A stretch of 64,000 bases of DNA from an uncultured Gemmatimonadales bacterium (GTDB lineage Bacteria > Gemmatimonadota > Gemmatimonadetes > Longimicrobiales > RSA9), in the NCBI GenBank assembly GCA_963741945.1, contig CAVUKA010000003.1, forward strand, positions 224,001 through 288,000. Direction: 5' to 3'. Under the pieces are notes generated by a model. That model was given only the letters and a program-made list of their open reading frames with translations. It ran no database searches and had not been told where the DNA came from. A program made the position numbers and the translations under genes. The stretch's first letter is position 1, and each line of letters opens with the position of its first letter. Positions 51,667-57,233 of this stretch are shown piece after piece.

Positions 51667-52458
51667 TCAGCGCGAGAGGTCGAAGGCGAGCCCGTCCTCG
51701 GCGCGGACCATCGCGCCCTCCCAGCCGGCGCTCCGGACCAGCCCCACGACATCGAGGGCGTCGAGCCACGGGTACACGTGCGTAACGACGAGCCTGGCCG
51801 GGCGAGCGATCGCGGCCATGGCGGCAAGGCTGGTGGGCGTCAGGTGGATCTCGAGCGGCTGGTCGTCCGGGAGCGAGCACTCGGCGATGAGGATCTCCGC
51901 GCCGGAGAGGAAGCGGGCCACATCGTCGGACGGCCCGGTGTCGCCGGTATAGGCGACGACGGGCCGGCCCCCGCCTTCATCGCCGCCAGCTTCGCGTTCC
52001 TGTAAGCGGAACGCCAGGGACTCGGGCGTGTGAGGCGTGCTGGCCGCGGCGAGGCTGAAGTGACCGACCTCCGCGCGGTCGCCGGGGCCGATCTCGCGAA
52101 CGAGGACGGGGAACCCCGGGTCGGCCAGGTGATCGCCGAATGCGGCCTGCATCGCCCTCAGGCGCTCCTGGATGCCGTGGGGGGCCCACACCGAGAGCGG
52201 CGAGGTCCGCCGCTCTCGGACGCCCCACTTGAGGGCGAAGAAGAGGGCGGGCAGGTCGCCGATGTGGTCGTTGTGGAAATGGGAGAGGACCACATGGTCG
52301 ATCCGGTGCCAGGGGAGTCCAAACCGCGCCATGCGGCCGAGGGTGCCCGGGCCGCAATCGAGGAGGAGCGCGGTGTCGCCGCTCTGGAGGAGGTACGCCG
52401 AGCACGCCCGTTCCGGCTCGGGTGCCGCGGTCCCGGTCCCAACGAGGGTGAGGCGCAC
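51667..52458 (-). CDS. MBL-fold hydrolase, RNase Z-like
   Basis: GTGT, DCGPG, SHFHNDH, YTGDT, THVYP. Confidence 0.88.
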   Translation of the reverse strand: MRLTLVGTGTAAPEPERACSAYLLQSGDTALLLDCGPGTLGRMARFGLPWHRIDHVVLSHFHNDHIGDLPALFFALKWGVRERRTSPLSVWAPHGIQERLRAMQAAFGDHLADPGFPVLVREIGPGDRAEVGHFSLAAASTPHTPESLAFRLQEREAGGDEGGGRPVVAYTGDTGPSDDVARFLSGAEILIAECSLPDDQPLEIHLTPTSLAAMAAIARPARLVVTHVYPWLDALDVVGLVRSAGWEGAMVRAEDGLAFDLSR

Positions 52459-52464
52459 GAGGAA

Positions 52465-55400
52465 CTACGCGGCCCCTGCGGCAGCGCGCGTGACGAGCTT
52501 CCCGAGCTCGACACCGACGATGGAGCTGACGCCGGGCTCCTCCATGGTCACGCCGTAGATCCAATCGGCGGCTTCCATGGTGCGGGGGTTGTGGGTGACC
52601 ACGATGAACTGCGTCTCGCTCTTGAAGCGGTCGAGCATGGTCAGGAAGCGACCGATGTTGGCTTCATCGAGCGGTGCATCGACCTCGTCGAGCACGCAGA
52701 ACGGGCTGGGCTTGACCAGGTAGATGGCGAACAGGAGGGCCAGGGAAGTCAGGGCTCGCTCGCCTCCGGAGAGGAGGTGGATGCGCTGCGTCCGCTTGCC
52801 CCGGGGTGACGCGGAGATTTCCAGGGGCGACTCGAGCGGGTCATCGGGATCCTCGAGCCAGAGGTCGCACTGTCCACCCTCGAACAGGGTCTGGAACGTG
52901 GTGCGGAAGTTCTCCCGGATCTGCTCGAACGTGTCCTTGAAGAGCTGACGGGCCGTCCGGTTGATCTCACGGATGGCCTTCTGGAGGTCATCCCGGGCCC
53001 GGACCAGGTCCGCGCGCTGTTCGCTCAGGAAATCGAGGCGCTGCTTCTCTTCCGCGTGCTCCTCGACGGCGAGCATGTTGATGGGGCCGAGGCGCTCGAT
53101 GTCGGTGATCAGCTGCTGCAGCTCCGCCGAGAGCAGTTCCAGCTCTCCCTCCACGGGCTCGACCATCTCCGCCAGCTGATCGAACGGCCGGTCCCACTCC
53201 ACCTCGACACGGTCCCGGACCCGCTGCTCCGCGGCGCCGGCCTCGGTGAGCCGGAGCTCGAGCCGGTGGCGCTCCTCGCCACTGGTTTCCGCCACCTGCC
53301 GGAGCTTGCGCGCCCGGTGCTCCAGGGATTCGGCGGCTTCACCCGCCTCGCGCAGCCGCTCGTCGAACCCGCGCAGCCGCTCGTGGGCCTCGTCGCGGCG
53401 AGCGAACAGCGACTCCAGCTCCGACGCGCCGCTGGTGTGCAGCTCCTCCAGCTCCTCGAGCGCGGCATGGTGCTCCGCCTCCTCCGTATCGAGGGCCAGC
53501 AGGCGGGCATCCGCGTGCTCGAGCGATCCTTCCGCGCTCGTTCGGCGTCGATCCAGCTCCGCCACCGCGGCCTCCTCGCGGGCATGGGCGATGCGGAGCT
53601 CCGCGACATCGTCACGGACCTCCTCCCACGCACCCTGCCGTTCCGCCAGCTCCGCGTCCGCCATCTCCCTGCGCTGGAGCAGCCGGTTCTGCTCGGCTTC
53701 CACACTGGCGGCTTCGGCCATGGCCGCGGCCGACTCGGCCCTCGCCTGCTCCGCGGCGGCGCGCAGCCCTATCCGCTGCCGCTCCAGCTCGTCGCGGCTC
53801 CGCTCGGCGCGCGCGCGCTGTCCGGCGCGGGCGGCCTCATCGGCGTCGAGGCGACGGAGCTCCAGCTCGAGGCCGCGGGCGTTCTCCTCCAGTTCCCGCG
53901 CTTCCGCCTCGGCTTCTTCCACCTTCCTGGCGAGCGTGGCGCGGGAGGCCGCGCGCGCTTCCCGGTCGCGCGTAGCCGCTTCGGCCCGGGTGCGCAGCGC
54001 TGCCAGCCGCTCGCGGCGGCCGAGGAGCACCGGCTCGGACGCCGGCTCGCCAGCGAACTCGAAGGCGGCGACCAGGTCGCGCAGACGATCGAGATCGGCT
54101 TCTCGCAGCAGGGCGAGCACGCCGGAATCGGGGCCATGCTCATCGACCCACGCGCGCAGCCGCCGGATGGCAGCATCGTCGGTGACCACGAGCGCCTGCA
54201 GCAGCGCGCCCACGGTGTTCTCCACCGCAGCCGCCCGGTCATCCGGAAGACTGAGCAGCTCGGCGACCGGCCCCACGAGCCCCTCCAGCTCGTCGCGGCG
54301 GGCGAGCGCTGCGGCCACGGCCGGCCCGAACCCGTGGTAGTCGCGCTCCAGGGCGTCCAGGGCGGCGACCCTGGCCGAGAGCAGGTTCTCGGCATCCTCC
54401 GCCTCCGACAGCGCACGACGCGCTTCCAATTCCTCCTGCCGGAGCGCGGCCAGGCGACTGCGGCACGCCTGGAGCTCTTCCCGGACCTGCTCCTCGGCGG
54501 CCGACAGCTCCCGGGCACGGGTCGCGAACAGGTCGCCCTGCTCCTGCAGCCGGGCGAGCTCGGAAACGAGATCCTCGTGCTCGAAGCCGAGCCGCTCAGC
54601 ACGCTCGCCGGCGTCGGCAGCGCGGGCACGGCCGGCCTCTGCGGCCGCCCTCAGCTGGGCCACCCGGTCCGCGAGCTCCTGCTGACGGACGCGCGTCTCG
54701 TGCTCCGCCTCGCGTGCGATGGCGAGCTGATCCCTGAGCACCCGCTGGCGCTCCTGCGCCTCGGTGACCCGGCCGCCCAGCTCTTCCAGCGAGCGCTGCC
54801 TCGCCTCCAGCTCGCCGCCAAGCGTGACGATCTCCTCACCGAGCGCCGCCGCCCTGGACCGGGTCTCCGAACGCTCGGTGGTGATCTGCTGCAGGCGACG
54901 CTGGGAATGGGCGCGCCGCTCCTCGGCGACCGCGAGCACCCGCTCCCGCTCGGAGATGGCCCGGTTCACTTCCTCCAGGGCGGAAGCATGCGTGCCCCGC
55001 TGTCGCGACACTTCGGCACTCTCCAGCCGGCGCCGCTCCAGCTCGGCCTCCGCGGTGCCAAGCTCCGCACGGGCGCCCGGCTCGAGGCGATTGAGCTCCT
55101 GCAACCGCTGGTCGGCCTCCGACATGGACGCCTGGAGGCGCTGGAGCTGCAGGAGGGCCACGGTCACCTCGAGAGCGAGACGGCGGTCCCGCATCTCGCC
55201 GAAGCGCTCGGCGCGGCGACGCTGGCGAGAAAGACTGCGGACCTTGGCCTCCACTTCGGAGATCAGGTCCTCCAGGCGCGACAGGTCGGATTCGGACGCC
55301 TCGAGCCGGCGCAGTGCCACCTTGCGACGGTCCTTGTAGCGGCCGATCCCCGCGGCCTCTTCGAAGACCTGGCGGCGCTCGTCCGCATTGTCGCTCAGGA

Positions 55401-55845
55401 GCGAGTCCACCATTCCCTGCTCGATGATGGCGTAGGCATTGGCGCCGAGACCCGTATCGCGGCAGACATCGAGGATGTCCTTGAGGCGCGAGCTGCGTCG
55501 GTTCAGCTCGTAGTCGCTCCCACCCTCCCTGTGCACCGTCCGCCGGATCTCCACCTCGTCGTAGGGGAGCGCGAGCCGGTGGTCGGCATTGTCGACGACG
55601 AGCGCCACTTCCGCGCGGCTGACCGCCCGCCGCTCCGAGGTGCCCTGGAAGATGGCCTCGTCCATCCGTGACCCGCGGATCGCCGAAGGCCGCTGCTCTC
55701 CCAGCACCCAGCGGATGGCGTCGCTGATGTTGGACTTGCCGCAGCCGTTCGGCCCCACGATGGCGGTGACGCCCTCGTGGAATTCGATCTCCGTGGCGTC
55801 CGCGAACGACTTGAAGCCGTGCAGCCGGAGCTTTCGAACCCTCAT
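52465..55845 (-). CDS. smc: chromosome segregation protein SMC with a short hinge
   Basis: GFKSFA, GPNGCGKSN, FEEAAGI, LSGGE, LDEVDAPLD; long coiled coils. Confidence 0.96.
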   Translation of the reverse strand: MRVRKLRLHGFKSFADATEIEFHEGVTAIVGPNGCGKSNISDAIRWVLGEQRPSAIRGSRMDEAIFQGTSERRAVSRAEVALVVDNADHRLALPYDEVEIRRTVHREGGSDYELNRRSSRLKDILDVCRDTGLGANAYAIIEQGMVDSLLSDNADERRQVFEEAAGIGRYKDRRKVALRRLEASESDLSRLEDLISEVEAKVRSLSRQRRRAERFGEMRDRRLALEVTVALLQLQRLQASMSEADQRLQELNRLEPGARAELGTAEAELERRRLESAEVSRQRGTHASALEEVNRAISERERVLAVAEERRAHSQRRLQQITTERSETRSRAAALGEEIVTLGGELEARQRSLEELGGRVTEAQERQRVLRDQLAIAREAEHETRVRQQELADRVAQLRAAAEAGRARAADAGERAERLGFEHEDLVSELARLQEQGDLFATRARELSAAEEQVREELQACRSRLAALRQEELEARRALSEAEDAENLLSARVAALDALERDYHGFGPAVAAALARRDELEGLVGPVAELLSLPDDRAAAVENTVGALLQALVVTDDAAIRRLRAWVDEHGPDSGVLALLREADLDRLRDLVAAFEFAGEPASEPVLLGRRERLAALRTRAEAATRDREARAASRATLARKVEEAEAEARELEENARGLELELRRLDADEAARAGQRARAERSRDELERQRIGLRAAAEQARAESAAAMAEAASVEAEQNRLLQRREMADAELAERQGAWEEVRDDVAELRIAHAREEAAVAELDRRRTSAEGSLEHADARLLALDTEEAEHHAALEELEELHTSGASELESLFARRDEAHERLRGFDERLREAGEAAESLEHRARKLRQVAETSGEERHRLELRLTEAGAAEQRVRDRVEVEWDRPFDQLAEMVEPVEGELELLSAELQQLITDIERLGPINMLAVEEHAEEKQRLDFLSEQRADLVRARDDLQKAIREINRTARQLFKDTFEQIRENFRTTFQTLFEGGQCDLWLEDPDDPLESPLEISASPRGKRTQRIHLLSGGERALTSLALLFAIYLVKPSPFCVLDEVDAPLDEANIGRFLTMLDRFKSETQFIVVTHNPRTMEAADWIYGVTMEEPGVSSIVGVELGKLVTRAAAGAA

Positions 55846-57233
55846 GCGCCCCCCGCCGGCTCGCCCGTCCGCTCCACCAGTCGGGCATCGACGCCGGCAT
55901 TCTCCAGCATCTGCTTCATCACGTCAGCTTCCGCGCGCGTGGTGTAGGCTCCGCCATAGACGCGGTATCGGTCCGGTCCAGGCTCGTAGCGCACGGGCAC
56001 GACGTACACGGGGATCCCGAGGGCACCGAGGGAGTCCACGCGGGCCGCGGCGTCATCCCTGGTGGCGTATTCGCCGACCAGGAAGGCGAGATGCGTGGGC
56101 AGCACCGCCCAGCTGTCCGGCGCTGTCTTGTGTCCGTGGTCCACGAGCCGCTGCATGAGCGCGCGGCCCGCCTCGTCGGTGCCCACCGGCCCGGCGAGCA
56201 GACGGTAGTACAGGTCGCCTCCCACGGCGAGGGGAGCCAGGAGGAAGGTCACCCCCGGCTCCGCGCGCTCGAGCTGCGTCACACGCTCCTGCGCCGTGGC
56301 CAGGTCCTGATGGGCTTCCACGGCCACAGAAACCGGGAGTGGCGTTTCCACCGGCTCCGGCCGCGACCGCGACACCGGTTGAACCGGCTGCTGCGAGACC
56401 GGCGGCTCGGATTCCGGCGACGGGGCCGGCTCGGCCACATACTCGCGGTAGAGAAACCAGCCGGCGAGCGCCACGATGATGAGCAGCAAAACCACCAGGA
56501 ACGGCGAGACCCTGCGCCTTCGCTCTTCTTCGACCTGCAGCAGCGGTGGCTCGGACAGCTCCCGCTCCGCTGTCGCGGCCGCCGCGTCCGCGGGCGCATC
56601 CCCGGCCACCGCGGCCGGGATGGCATTCCCATCGAAGTCCTCCCGGCGTTCCGGCTCGACAATTCCCACGATCCGGCACGCAGGGTCGAGGCGGCCGATG
56701 ACGCGCTCGGCGACCCGGGCGTCCCCCACAACCAGCGCGCGCCCGATGCGCCGGGAGAGGGGCGGCAGGCCCGGCGTGCCTACGGGAACGTACAGCAACA
56801 GGGTGGCATGCTCGTGCCGGAGCTCTCCGGCGATGCCGTCCCAGCGCTCGCTGGCCAGCACCGCGGCCGGATCGGGGACGAACGCGCCCGTCGGCACGAA
56901 ATCGAAGTGGTACGTGTCCGGCCGGACGCGCACGTGGCCGAGCGAGGCACCGAAGAGGAAGACGTCCGCGAGGCCCTCCAGGTTCCCGGTTCCGAGGGTC
57001 TCGTGCAGCCCCGGATCCGCGACGCCGCCGTCGGCGAGGATGGTGACCGCACCGGCGCGTGCCCGCGCCTCCGCCAGGCCGATGCCAATGCGGGCGTAGA
57101 GGTCGCCCGTGTTCGGGACCACGATGAGCAGGATCTGCGTTTCGGGATCGATCAGCCCAGGCCCCAGTGTCGGCGGGATCGCAACCGATCCGGGGTCGAA
57201 TGGGACGGCCTCGGGTCTGGCTTCGGGGCTCAT
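55842..57233 (-). CDS. bitopic protein: degenerate MinD/BY-kinase-like domain, TM helix, Pro-rich linker, two SPOR-like domains
   Basis: ILADG..DPGLH..LG..NLEGLADV; TM FLVVLLLIIVALAGWFLY; YYRLLAGP and YRVYGGAY SPOR motifs. Confidence 0.8.
   Translation of the reverse strand: MSPEARPEAVPFDPGSVAIPPTLGPGLIDPETQILLIVVPNTGDLYARIGIGLAEARARAGAVTILADGGVADPGLHETLGTGNLEGLADVFLFGASLGHVRVRPDTYHFDFVPTGAFVPDPAAVLASERWDGIAGELRHEHATLLLYVPVGTPGLPPLSRRIGRALVVGDARVAERVIGRLDPACRIVGIVEPERREDFDGNAIPAAVAGDAPADAAAATAERELSEPPLLQVEEERRRRVSPFLVVLLLIIVALAGWFLYREYVAEPAPSPESEPPVSQQPVQPVSRSRPEPVETPLPVSVAVEAHQDLATAQERVTQLERAEPGVTFLLAPLAVGGDLYYRLLAGPVGTDEAGRALMQRLVDHGHKTAPDSWAVLPTHLAFLVGEYATRDDAAARVDSLGALGIPVYVVPVRYEPGPDRYRVYGGAYTTRAEADVMKQMLENAGVDARLVERTGEPAGGA

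What the first reader, a model, noticed from the sequence alone, without database searches (positions are those of the whole stretch)
54010..54345. SMC with an apparent half-hinge
Seen: the hinge aligns with canonical SMC through its first subdomain (GLVGPVAELL, AVENTVGALLQALVV, GVLALL) and then reaches the coiled-coil entry LLGRRERL after only about 25 residues; the protein is 1126 aa. Known: B. subtilis-type SMC (about 1186 aa) has a second hinge subdomain here carrying the GX6GX3GG motif needed for dimerisation. Inference: roughly 70 aa are deleted in frame while the ATPase heads are intact, implying a different minimal dimer interface or a hinge completed by a partner protein.
Basis: partly seen in the sequence, partly recalled or inferred. 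Interest (0 to 1): 0.7.

Follow-up and report, generated by a model that had tools for sequence, protein, structure and literature searches.

The report
Family-wide SMC with half a hinge
The chromosome-organising SMC protein of one family of Gemmatimonadota bacteria has lost most of the second half of its dimerising hinge, which makes it a natural test of how little hinge this motor needs.

Summary
The gene at window 52465-55845 (-) encodes a 1126-aa Smc: NCBIfam TIGR02168 scores 889.6 bits against a cut-off of 567. Its heads are intact, it is the only Smc found in the genome, and scpA and scpB are present.

After hinge strand beta3 (VLALL) only 27 residues precede the coiled-coil entry GRRERL. 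The same stretch is 72-81 residues in sister families and 99 in a canonical-length Smc.

This is not an artefact. All 19 of 19 same-family loci that cover the hinge have exactly 27 residues, and 10 of 10 loci from two sister families have the long form. In 1.84 billion representative proteins only 7 match across the junction at E <= 1e-30.

AlphaFold2 folds the segment confidently (pLDDT 92.9) as hinge subdomain I plus one helix and a short C-terminal segment (FEFA) that forms a strand only in the dimer model. A homodimer model passes its controls (0.73 against 0.00). In it beta3 pairs in trans with that strand, as in canonical hinges.

I found no partner that could complete the hinge. I found no description in print. 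The scan has noted hinge-less and zinc-hook SMCs elsewhere, but no look-alike of this one.

Verdict: a new variant of a known kind. Dimerisation is predicted, not shown.

The parts
52465..55845 (-). smc gene, 1126 aa (P0001). It is the only Smc found in this genome.
   Evidence: ORF list and translation. TIGR02168 scores 889.6 bits against a cut-off of 567.35. Pfam SMC_N covers 3-1107. The own genome gives one match at E <= 1e-5.
54103..54342 (-). Hinge subdomain I, residues 502-581. It comprises helices and three strands, beta1 to beta3, and is intact.
   Evidence: Pfam SMC_hinge covers model positions 2-61 of 116. The AF2 model has strands at segment positions 44-47, 73-75 and 100-102. VIA-align gives Z 13.2 to 1gxl_A (rmsd 3.0, 130 aligned).
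54103..54120 (-). Strand beta3 (VLALLR, residues 576-581), the outermost strand of the N-terminal sheet and the predicted trans-pairing edge. It carries Ala578, which is specific to this family.
   Evidence: translation. (contacts of segment 98-102 with 116-119 of the other copy). Ala is present in 19 of 19 family loci and 0 of 10 sister-family loci (read from the alignment).
54064..54102 (-). Remnant helix, residues 582-594 (EADLDRLRDLVAA). In the model it packs on its own copy across the dimer axis.
   Evidence: AF2 helix at segment positions 103-115. Contacts 112-112, 108-108 and 108-112.
54049..54063 (-). Remnant strand FEFAG, residues 595-599. Phe597 and Gly599 are invariant in the family. 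In the model it adds in trans to beta3 of the partner.
   Evidence: Invariant columns F118 and G120. Contacts 116-119 with 98-102. MAFFT and HHalign both place G120 on the last Gly of the sister families' glycine-motif strand.
54004..54048 (-). Linker (EPASEPVLL) and coiled-coil entry GRRERL, residues 600-614. G609, R610 and R613 are invariant.
   Evidence: The C-terminal arm helix starts at segment position 131.

Best explanation
This is the genuine Smc of an Smc-ScpAB complex. An ancestor of one bacterial family lost about 50 residues of hinge subdomain II relative to sister families, and about 70 relative to canonical Smc. The record titles of the closest public loci place that family in Gemmatimonadota, labelled Longimicrobiales.

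What remains is subdomain I (strands beta1 to beta3 with their helices), one helix, one short strand (FEFA) and a glycine, followed directly by the C-terminal arm.

I propose that two such hinges still form a constitutive two-fold dimer by reciprocal strand addition. The remnant strand of each monomer extends the exposed beta3 edge of the other, and the two remnant helices pack around the axis. This keeps the canonical contact between beta3 and the C-terminal strand but discards the sheet that normally carries that strand.

Shown here: the deletion, its fixed length, its restriction to the family, the intact heads, the single smc gene, and the presence of scpAB. Inferred: dimerisation, its geometry, and that the complex works like other Smc-ScpAB complexes.
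For: Identity
- TIGR02168 scores 889.6 bits against a cut-off of 567.35, and SMC_N covers 3-1107.
- The genome has one Smc.
- ScpA (113 bits) and ScpB (178.9 bits) lie adjacent on another contig.

The deletion is real and old
- 19 of 19 same-family loci that cover the hinge have exactly 27 residues between residue 581 and G609. 10 of 10 loci from the two sister families have 72-81. Without the unpublished genomes the counts are 17 of 17 and 9 of 9.
- In a 301-genome sample of the phylum, the 7 family rows are the only ones among the 150 match rows listed that span the hinge profile end to end, in 537-546 nt.
- Among 1.84 billion representative proteins, 7 reach E <= 1e-30 and all cross the junction.

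The remnant is under selection
- Mean pairwise identity is 0.49 for the remnant, against 0.51 for subdomain I and 0.48-0.50 for the arms (14 sequences, 91 pairs).
- F118, G120, G130, R131 and R134 are invariant.

Fold
- AF2 gives pLDDT 92.9 and pTM 0.76.
- VIA-align gives Z 13.2 to 1gxl_A (rmsd 3.0, 130 aligned) and Z 12.6 to 5h69_B (rmsd 3.6, 162 aligned).

Dimer
- Complex prediction gives a median score of 0.73 with a best control of 0.00. The mark was reached by 20 of 30 proteins solved as pairs of one chain and by 1 of 23 solved as single chains. The runs agree in at least 93% of contacts, and the partner's pLDDT is at least 73.
- The lowest-error contacts are between 98-102 and 116-119 of the other copy.
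- In canonical hinges the interface is beta3 of one subunit with the last C-terminal strand of the other (Griese 2010, PMC2879519, passages read).
- Ala at segment position 99 is present in 19 of 19 family loci and 0 of 10 sister loci. In the model it touches the invariant F118 of the partner.

Plausibility
- B. subtilis Smc still supports growth when its hinge is replaced by the Rad50 zinc hook (Burmann 2017, PMC5344682, passages read).
Against: - Dimerisation rests on one model. The tool itself warns that a pass can reflect memory of solved SMC hinge dimers, and that its calibration holds only roughly when the user supplies the alignment.
- The alignment has only 16 rows.
- Conserved positions are not enriched in the predicted interface. 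7 of the 28 invariant or nearly invariant columns fall among the 37 interface residues of 181 (my count).
- In the AF2 monomer, residues 116-130 form a loop rather than a strand.
- Sequence cannot resolve which elements of subdomain II the remnant helix and strand derive from. Sliding-window scores are low and ambiguous.
- The public contigs laid on the region do not cover the junction.
- There are no functional data for any member of the family.
Confidence: 0.7

Rival explanations
1. The half hinge does not dimerise on its own. The two Smc chains would be held together by arm-to-arm contacts, head engagement and the ScpA kleisin, and the hinge remnant would be only a folded cap, a step towards the hinge-less state.
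For: Hinge-less SMC homologues have been reported in marine Actinobacteria (PMC12153180, passages read). Earlier notes of this scan list hinge-less Smc in other genomes (unchecked). The confident contacts are confined to residues 61-123 and include none in the arms. Conserved columns are not enriched in the interface.
Against: The homodimer model passes at 0.73 against a best control of 0.00. The remnant length is fixed at exactly 27 residues in 19 of 19 loci, while a loop in subdomain I tolerates insertions of 5 to 22 residues. F118 and G120 are invariant. Ala99, which is specific to the family, faces F118 in the model.
Confidence: 0.15
2. The hinge is completed in trans by a separate protein that supplies the missing subdomain II or another dimerising element.
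For: There is no direct evidence. The idea is suggested only by the missing sheet. smc is translationally coupled to an upstream SPOR-domain gene through a 4-nt overlap at 55842-55845.
Against: PF06470 searched over the whole genome at E <= 10 finds only smc itself (model positions 2-61 of 116) and one below-threshold hit (E 1.08, 11.3 bits). The SPOR neighbour also lies beside long-hinge smc genes in sister families (L025, L028, L030). The self-complementing dimer model needs no partner. A non-homologous partner cannot be excluded with these tools.
Confidence: 0.07
3. The short hinge is an assembly artefact, a pseudogene or a secondary paralogue.
For: The public contigs laid on the region leave the junction (54022-54102) uncovered, so read-level confirmation is lacking.
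Against: The same deletion, with the same length, appears in 19 independent assemblies from 18 genera and in 3 more genera. The frame is open over 1126 codons. The heads are 76-82% identical across the family. No second Smc was found in the genome.
Confidence: 0.02

Closest known systems
Canonical bacterial Smc of Smc-ScpAB (B. subtilis and T. maritima type; NCBIfam TIGR02168; hinge structures 1GXL and 5H69)
   Same: The heads and arms match, and hinge subdomain I matches with beta1 to beta3 (Z 13.2 to 1gxl_A, rmsd 3.0, 130 aligned). ScpA and ScpB are present. The predicted trans pairing uses beta3, as in canonical hinges.
   Different: The C-terminal sheet and most helices of subdomain II are absent: 28 residues here against 99 in P0076. 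Of the GX6GX3GG motif only the last Gly has a counterpart (the motif name is recalled). Whether a central channel or doughnut shape survives is unknown.
MukB hinge (E. coli; 2WMM, 3IBP, 4MN4)
   Same: It is a naturally small hinge that still forms a two-fold dimer with two interfaces (Griese 2010, PMC2879519). The model aligns over most of the MukB hinge length: 143 of 162 residues at Z 7.7, rmsd 4.8 (2wmm_A), and 136 of 154 at Z 7.8, rmsd 4.1 (4mn4_D).
   Different: Z values below 8 fall in the range the tool calls common for helical models. MukB_hinge is not among the 9 Pfam families listed for P0001. The protein is an Smc with ScpAB, not a MukB with MukEF. The small size is convergent at most.
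Hinge-less SMC homologues of marine Actinobacteria (PMC12153180, 2025)
   Same: Both are natural, lineage-wide reductions of the SMC hinge in bacteria that lack a second, canonical Smc.
   Different: Those proteins lack the hinge altogether (passages read). Here subdomain I and an interface strand are kept, and a hinge-mediated dimer is predicted.
Engineered B. subtilis Smc(Zh), with the hinge replaced by the P. furiosus Rad50 zinc hook (Burmann 2017, PMC5344682)
   Same: It shows that Smc function tolerates a much smaller dimerisation module.
   Different: That is a laboratory construct with an unrelated fold. P0001 has no CxxC motif.

Membership tests
Smc of Smc-ScpAB (NCBIfam TIGR02168, SMC_prok_B) | Whole-protein score above the curated cut-off | tested here: met
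   889.6 bits against a cut-off of 567.35. The archaeal-type TIGR02169 scores 514, below its cut-off of 729.4.
Smc of Smc-ScpAB (NCBIfam TIGR02168, SMC_prok_B) | Split ABC ATPase head with Walker A, signature motif and Walker B | tested here: met
   SMC_N covers 3-1107 at 225 bits. GPNGCGKS is at 31, LSGGE at 1025 and LDEVDA at 1052.
Smc of Smc-ScpAB (NCBIfam TIGR02168, SMC_prok_B) | Two-subdomain hinge with full SMC_hinge coverage and a C-terminal glycine-motif sheet | tested here: not met
   PF06470 covers model positions 2-61 of 116. About 67 residues of the 1gxl chain have no counterpart. The stretch is 28 residues against 99. Pfam also covers only 1-74 of 116 in the long hinge of the sister-family segment scanned first, L023.
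Smc of Smc-ScpAB (NCBIfam TIGR02168, SMC_prok_B) | Kleisin ScpA and ScpB encoded in the genome | tested here: met
   PF02616 scores 113 bits and PF04079 scores 178.9 bits, both over their cut-offs. The two genes are adjacent at G000:C7:16644-17814.
Smc of Smc-ScpAB (NCBIfam TIGR02168, SMC_prok_B) | Homodimerisation through the hinge | tested here: inconclusive
   Prediction only. The score is 0.73 with a best control of 0.00. The mark was reached by 20 of 30 proteins solved as pairs of one chain and 1 of 23 solved as single chains. No experiment was done.
Smc of Smc-ScpAB (NCBIfam TIGR02168, SMC_prok_B) | Long antiparallel coiled-coil arms | tested here: inconclusive
   The hinge-proximal helices are modelled (segment positions 2-22 and 131-180). 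The alignment to relatives is colinear outside the hinge. The full arms were not modelled.
MukB-type hinge (Pfam PF16330) | Match to the MukB_hinge profile, or a clear fold match | tested here: inconclusive
   MukB_hinge is not among the 9 Pfam families listed for P0001 at E <= 1. The structural match is Z 7.7, rmsd 4.8, 143 aligned (2wmm_A) and Z 7.8, rmsd 4.1, 136 aligned (4mn4_D), which is in the ambiguous range.
Rad50/SbcC-type zinc hook | CxxC motif at the apex of the coiled coil | tested here: not met
   P0001 has no CxxC anywhere, and 5 Cys in total.
Hinge-less SMC (marine Actinobacteria, PMC12153180) | No hinge domain between the two arm helices | tested here: not met
   Subdomain I is present and folds confidently.

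The most novel reading that the evidence does not exclude
A self-sufficient minimal SMC hinge. About 100 residues, made of subdomain I plus one helix and one strand, would form a stable two-fold dimer purely by reciprocal exchange between beta3 and the terminal strand. It would lack the C-terminal sheet and probably the central channel and the DNA-contacting surfaces of subdomain II. That would show, for an entire bacterial family, that chromosome organisation by Smc-ScpAB needs none of these features.
Probability: 0.55. Interest if true: 0.6.

Novelty: new variant of a known kind. Interest (0 to 1): 0.45.

Why it matters
The doughnut-shaped, two-subdomain hinge is among the most conserved features of SMC proteins, and it has been assigned roles beyond dimerisation, such as DNA binding and gate opening. 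Laboratory swaps show that B. subtilis Smc tolerates a foreign dimeriser.

A natural lineage that keeps only the two interface strands would identify which hinge parts evolution treats as indispensable for Smc-ScpAB. It would also provide a compact module of about 100 residues for structural and engineering work.

Together with other Gemmatimonadota hinges of intermediate length (63-66 residues after beta3), it gives a graded natural series for studying how hinge structure relates to function.

Tried and rejected
- Read-level check. One public run, held as contigs (X1), carries 36% of the sampled words. Its two contigs cover 53600-53753 and 54171-54474 with no differences, but not the junction at 54022-54102. 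This says nothing either way. No RNA holder was listed.
- The search for related loci with the 16-row alignment failed for lack of a conserved stretch. With the single segment it found no relative. A 4-row alignment gave 5 loci, L033-L037, which I used only for the organism titles.
- Sliding the remnant against the sister-family hinge to assign homology of its helix and strand gave low, ambiguous scores. I therefore make no claim about which subdomain II elements survive. The only exception is that MAFFT and HHalign both put G120 on the last glycine.
- I looked for enrichment of conserved columns in the predicted interface and found none: 7 of 28 conserved columns, against 37 of 181 residues in the interface.
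- The free-standing hinge hypothesis was tested with a PF06470 scan of the whole genome. It found only smc and an E 1.08 hit.
- The flanking genes are a SPOR-domain protein and an MBL-fold hydrolase. Neither is specific to the short-hinge family.
- P0067, a 201-aa fragment that seemed to span the junction with only 9 extra residues, has a garbled C-terminal half. I set it aside.
- Literature searches for a half, minimal, truncated or shortened Smc hinge, and for Smc in Gemmatimonadota, turned up no description.
- The one paper holding 'SMC', 'hinge' and 'Gemmatimonadetes' (PMC7203096) has no 'hinge' in the 300,000 characters held.
Full report
**What is there**

The finding lies inside one open reading frame, window 52465-55845 on the minus strand, which encodes 1126 aa. 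The protein is a bacterial-type Smc:
- NCBIfam TIGR02168 scores 889.6 bits against a cut-off of 567.35, while the archaeal-type model stays below its cut-off.
- Pfam SMC_N spans residues 3-1107.
- Walker A, the signature motif and Walker B are present.
- The genome (4.09 Mb, 8 contigs, 96.7% complete) gives one match to this protein at E <= 1e-5.
- It encodes adjacent ScpA and ScpB genes, both over their Pfam cut-offs.

Record titles of the five closest public loci call them Longimicrobiales or Gemmatimonadaceae MAGs, which places them in Gemmatimonadota.

**The observation**

- Pfam SMC_hinge covers only model positions 2-61 of 116.
- A profile of the hinge aligns to the T. maritima hinge 1gxl at chain positions 13-122 and then, weakly, at 190-211. 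About 67 residues have no counterpart.
- From the end of strand beta3 to the residue before the RRE motif there are 28 residues here. A canonical-length 1183-aa representative has 99, and a sister-family-like one has 82.

**Artefact or biology**

A search of 41 related genomes found Smc in 40. I extracted the Smc frames from 29 loci and aligned them.
- All 19 loci of the window's own taxonomic family (f1, as defined by the tool) that cover the hinge share the short form. They come from 18 genera. Each has exactly 27 residues between residue 581 and G609.
- All 10 loci of the two sister families in the same order have 72-81 residues.
- Six f1 genomes could not be counted. Five (G002, G004, G007, G016, G021) had only fragments that miss the hinge, and G018 gave no match.
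- Three of the counted loci (L010, L012, L029) come from genomes flagged as unpublished. Without them the counts are 17 of 17 and 9 of 9.

A sample of 301 genomes from the phylum, searched with the hinge profile, matched in 258.
- The 7 f1 rows, which include three further genera, are the only ones among the 150 match rows listed that span the profile end to end, in 537-546 nt.
- 109 lower-scoring rows were not shown.
- Other families match only about positions 2-125, or need about 36 extra residues. Three of those non-f1 genomes are unpublished.

Against 1.84 billion representatives clustered at 50% identity, 1299 proteins match at E <= 0.001, but only 7 reach E <= 1e-30. All seven cross the junction.

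The deletion is therefore real and derived, and it is fixed in one family.

Within that family the remnant evolves at the same rate as the rest of the hinge and the arms. Mean pairwise identity is 0.49 for the remnant, 0.51 for subdomain I and 0.48-0.50 for the arms (91 pairs of 14 sequences). A loop in subdomain I tolerates insertions of 5 to 22 residues.

**Anatomy**

AlphaFold2, run on a 16-row family alignment, gives a confident model (pLDDT 92.9, pTM 0.76). Its elements in order are:
- the N-terminal arm helix;
- subdomain I, with three strands and its helices;
- one further helix (segment positions 103-115);
- a 15-residue stretch without regular structure;
- the C-terminal arm helix.

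The best structural matches are the SMC hinges of T. maritima (1gxl_A: Z 13.2, rmsd 3.0, 130 aligned) and G. stearothermophilus (5h69_B: Z 12.6, rmsd 3.6, 162 aligned). MukB hinges follow at Z 7.7 (2wmm_A: rmsd 4.8, 143 aligned) and Z 7.8 (4mn4_D: rmsd 4.1, 136 aligned), a range the tool calls ambiguous.

A model of a sister-family long hinge is of moderate quality (pLDDT 79.0, with the other four models at 55-68). Beyond the shared part it shows three strands of 3 or more residues, two shorter strand stretches and one helix.

MAFFT and HHalign both split the loss into two gaps and place the invariant Gly (G120 of the segment) on the last glycine of the sister families' glycine-motif strand. 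The homology of the remnant helix and strand cannot be settled from sequence.

The glycine motif is already degenerate in the sister families. Pfam covers only 1-74 of 116 in the sister-family segment scanned first, L023, and all 9 segments scanned match the family.

**How it probably works**

In canonical hinges, the outermost strand of the N-terminal sheet (beta3) of one subunit pairs with the last C-terminal strand of the other. This happens twice, related by symmetry (Griese et al. 2010, PMC2879519, passages read).

The homodimer prediction for the short hinge passes its controls:
- The median score is 0.73 and the best of three controls is 0.00.
- The mark was reached by 20 of 30 proteins solved as pairs of one chain and by 1 of 23 solved as single chains.
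- The runs agree in at least 93% of contacts, and the partner's pLDDT is at least 73.

Its lowest-error contacts are between beta3 (segment 98-102) and the remnant strand FEFA (116-119) of the other copy, and between the remnant helices across the axis. The short hinge thus seems to keep the two strands that make the canonical interface and to discard the sheet between them.

Two family-specific features fit this picture. Ala at position 99 on beta3 is present in 19 of 19 family loci and in 0 of 10 sister loci. It touches the invariant Phe118 of the partner in the model.

There are caveats:
- The pass may reflect the model's memory of solved hinge dimers.
- Conserved columns are not enriched in the interface (7 of 28).
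- Nothing has been measured.

That B. subtilis Smc supports growth with a Rad50 zinc hook in place of its hinge (Burmann et al. 2017, PMC5344682, passages read) makes a functional minimal hinge plausible.

**Rivals**

- A partner that completes the hinge. A Pfam SMC_hinge scan of the whole genome found nothing beyond smc itself and an E 1.08 hit. The translationally coupled upstream SPOR-domain gene also accompanies long-hinge smc genes. A non-homologous partner remains possible.
- A non-dimerising cap on the way to hinge loss. This is possible, given the hinge-less SMCs reported in marine Actinobacteria (PMC12153180). It fits poorly with the strictly fixed remnant length and the invariant Phe and Gly.
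- An artefact or pseudogene. This is excluded by the comparative data, although the public contigs I could lay do not cover the junction.

**Novelty**

Seven full-text searches found no description of a half or minimal Smc hinge, or of Smc in Gemmatimonadota.

Earlier notes of this scan record hinge-less and zinc-hook SMCs in other genomes (unchecked). None resembles this sequence.

I rate it a new variant of a known kind, of moderate interest. It is a natural, family-wide minimal hinge that could be tested directly for dimerisation and function.

Noticed in passing
window 55842-57233 (-) and 55842-55845: The gene upstream of smc encodes a 463-aa SPOR-domain protein (52 bits). Its stop overlaps the smc start by 4 nt, which suggests translational coupling. 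The SPOR-smc pairing recurs in 16 further family loci (17 of 20 hits including the window's own locus L001) and in three sister-family loci (L025, L028, L030).
   Followed up: partly
window 51667-52458 (-): A 263-aa metallo-beta-lactamase-fold hydrolase lies directly downstream of smc (Lactamase_B_2, 75.9 bits). It gives a weak, below-cut-off hit to the anti-Pycsar Apyc1 family (24.9 bits against a cut-off of 50). Apart from the window's own locus L001, it is found downstream of smc in 7 of the 29 other loci searched, all of the window's family.
   Followed up: partly
L014:2245-2823, L019:457-1065, L012:2890-3447: Three family members carry Gly/Lys/Arg-rich insertions of 12, 22 and 5 residues in the subdomain I loop just before beta3. 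The remnant after beta3 never varies in length. L012 is from an unpublished genome.
   Followed up: no
P0086, P0043; G105, G222, G292 rows: Other Smc proteins with Gemmatimonadota-like sequence have an intermediate subdomain II: 63-66 residues after beta3, against 28 here, 82 in P0010 and 99 in canonical P0076. Hinge reduction in this phylum may therefore be graded.
   Followed up: partly
G027, G029, G033, G035 and other genus g27 genomes: In one sister-family genus, 1 of 19 sampled genomes matches the hinge profile at E <= 1e-5. Yet Smc is present in the three members of that genus (G027, G029, G035) that were searched with the whole protein. Their hinge must be strongly divergent.
   Followed up: no
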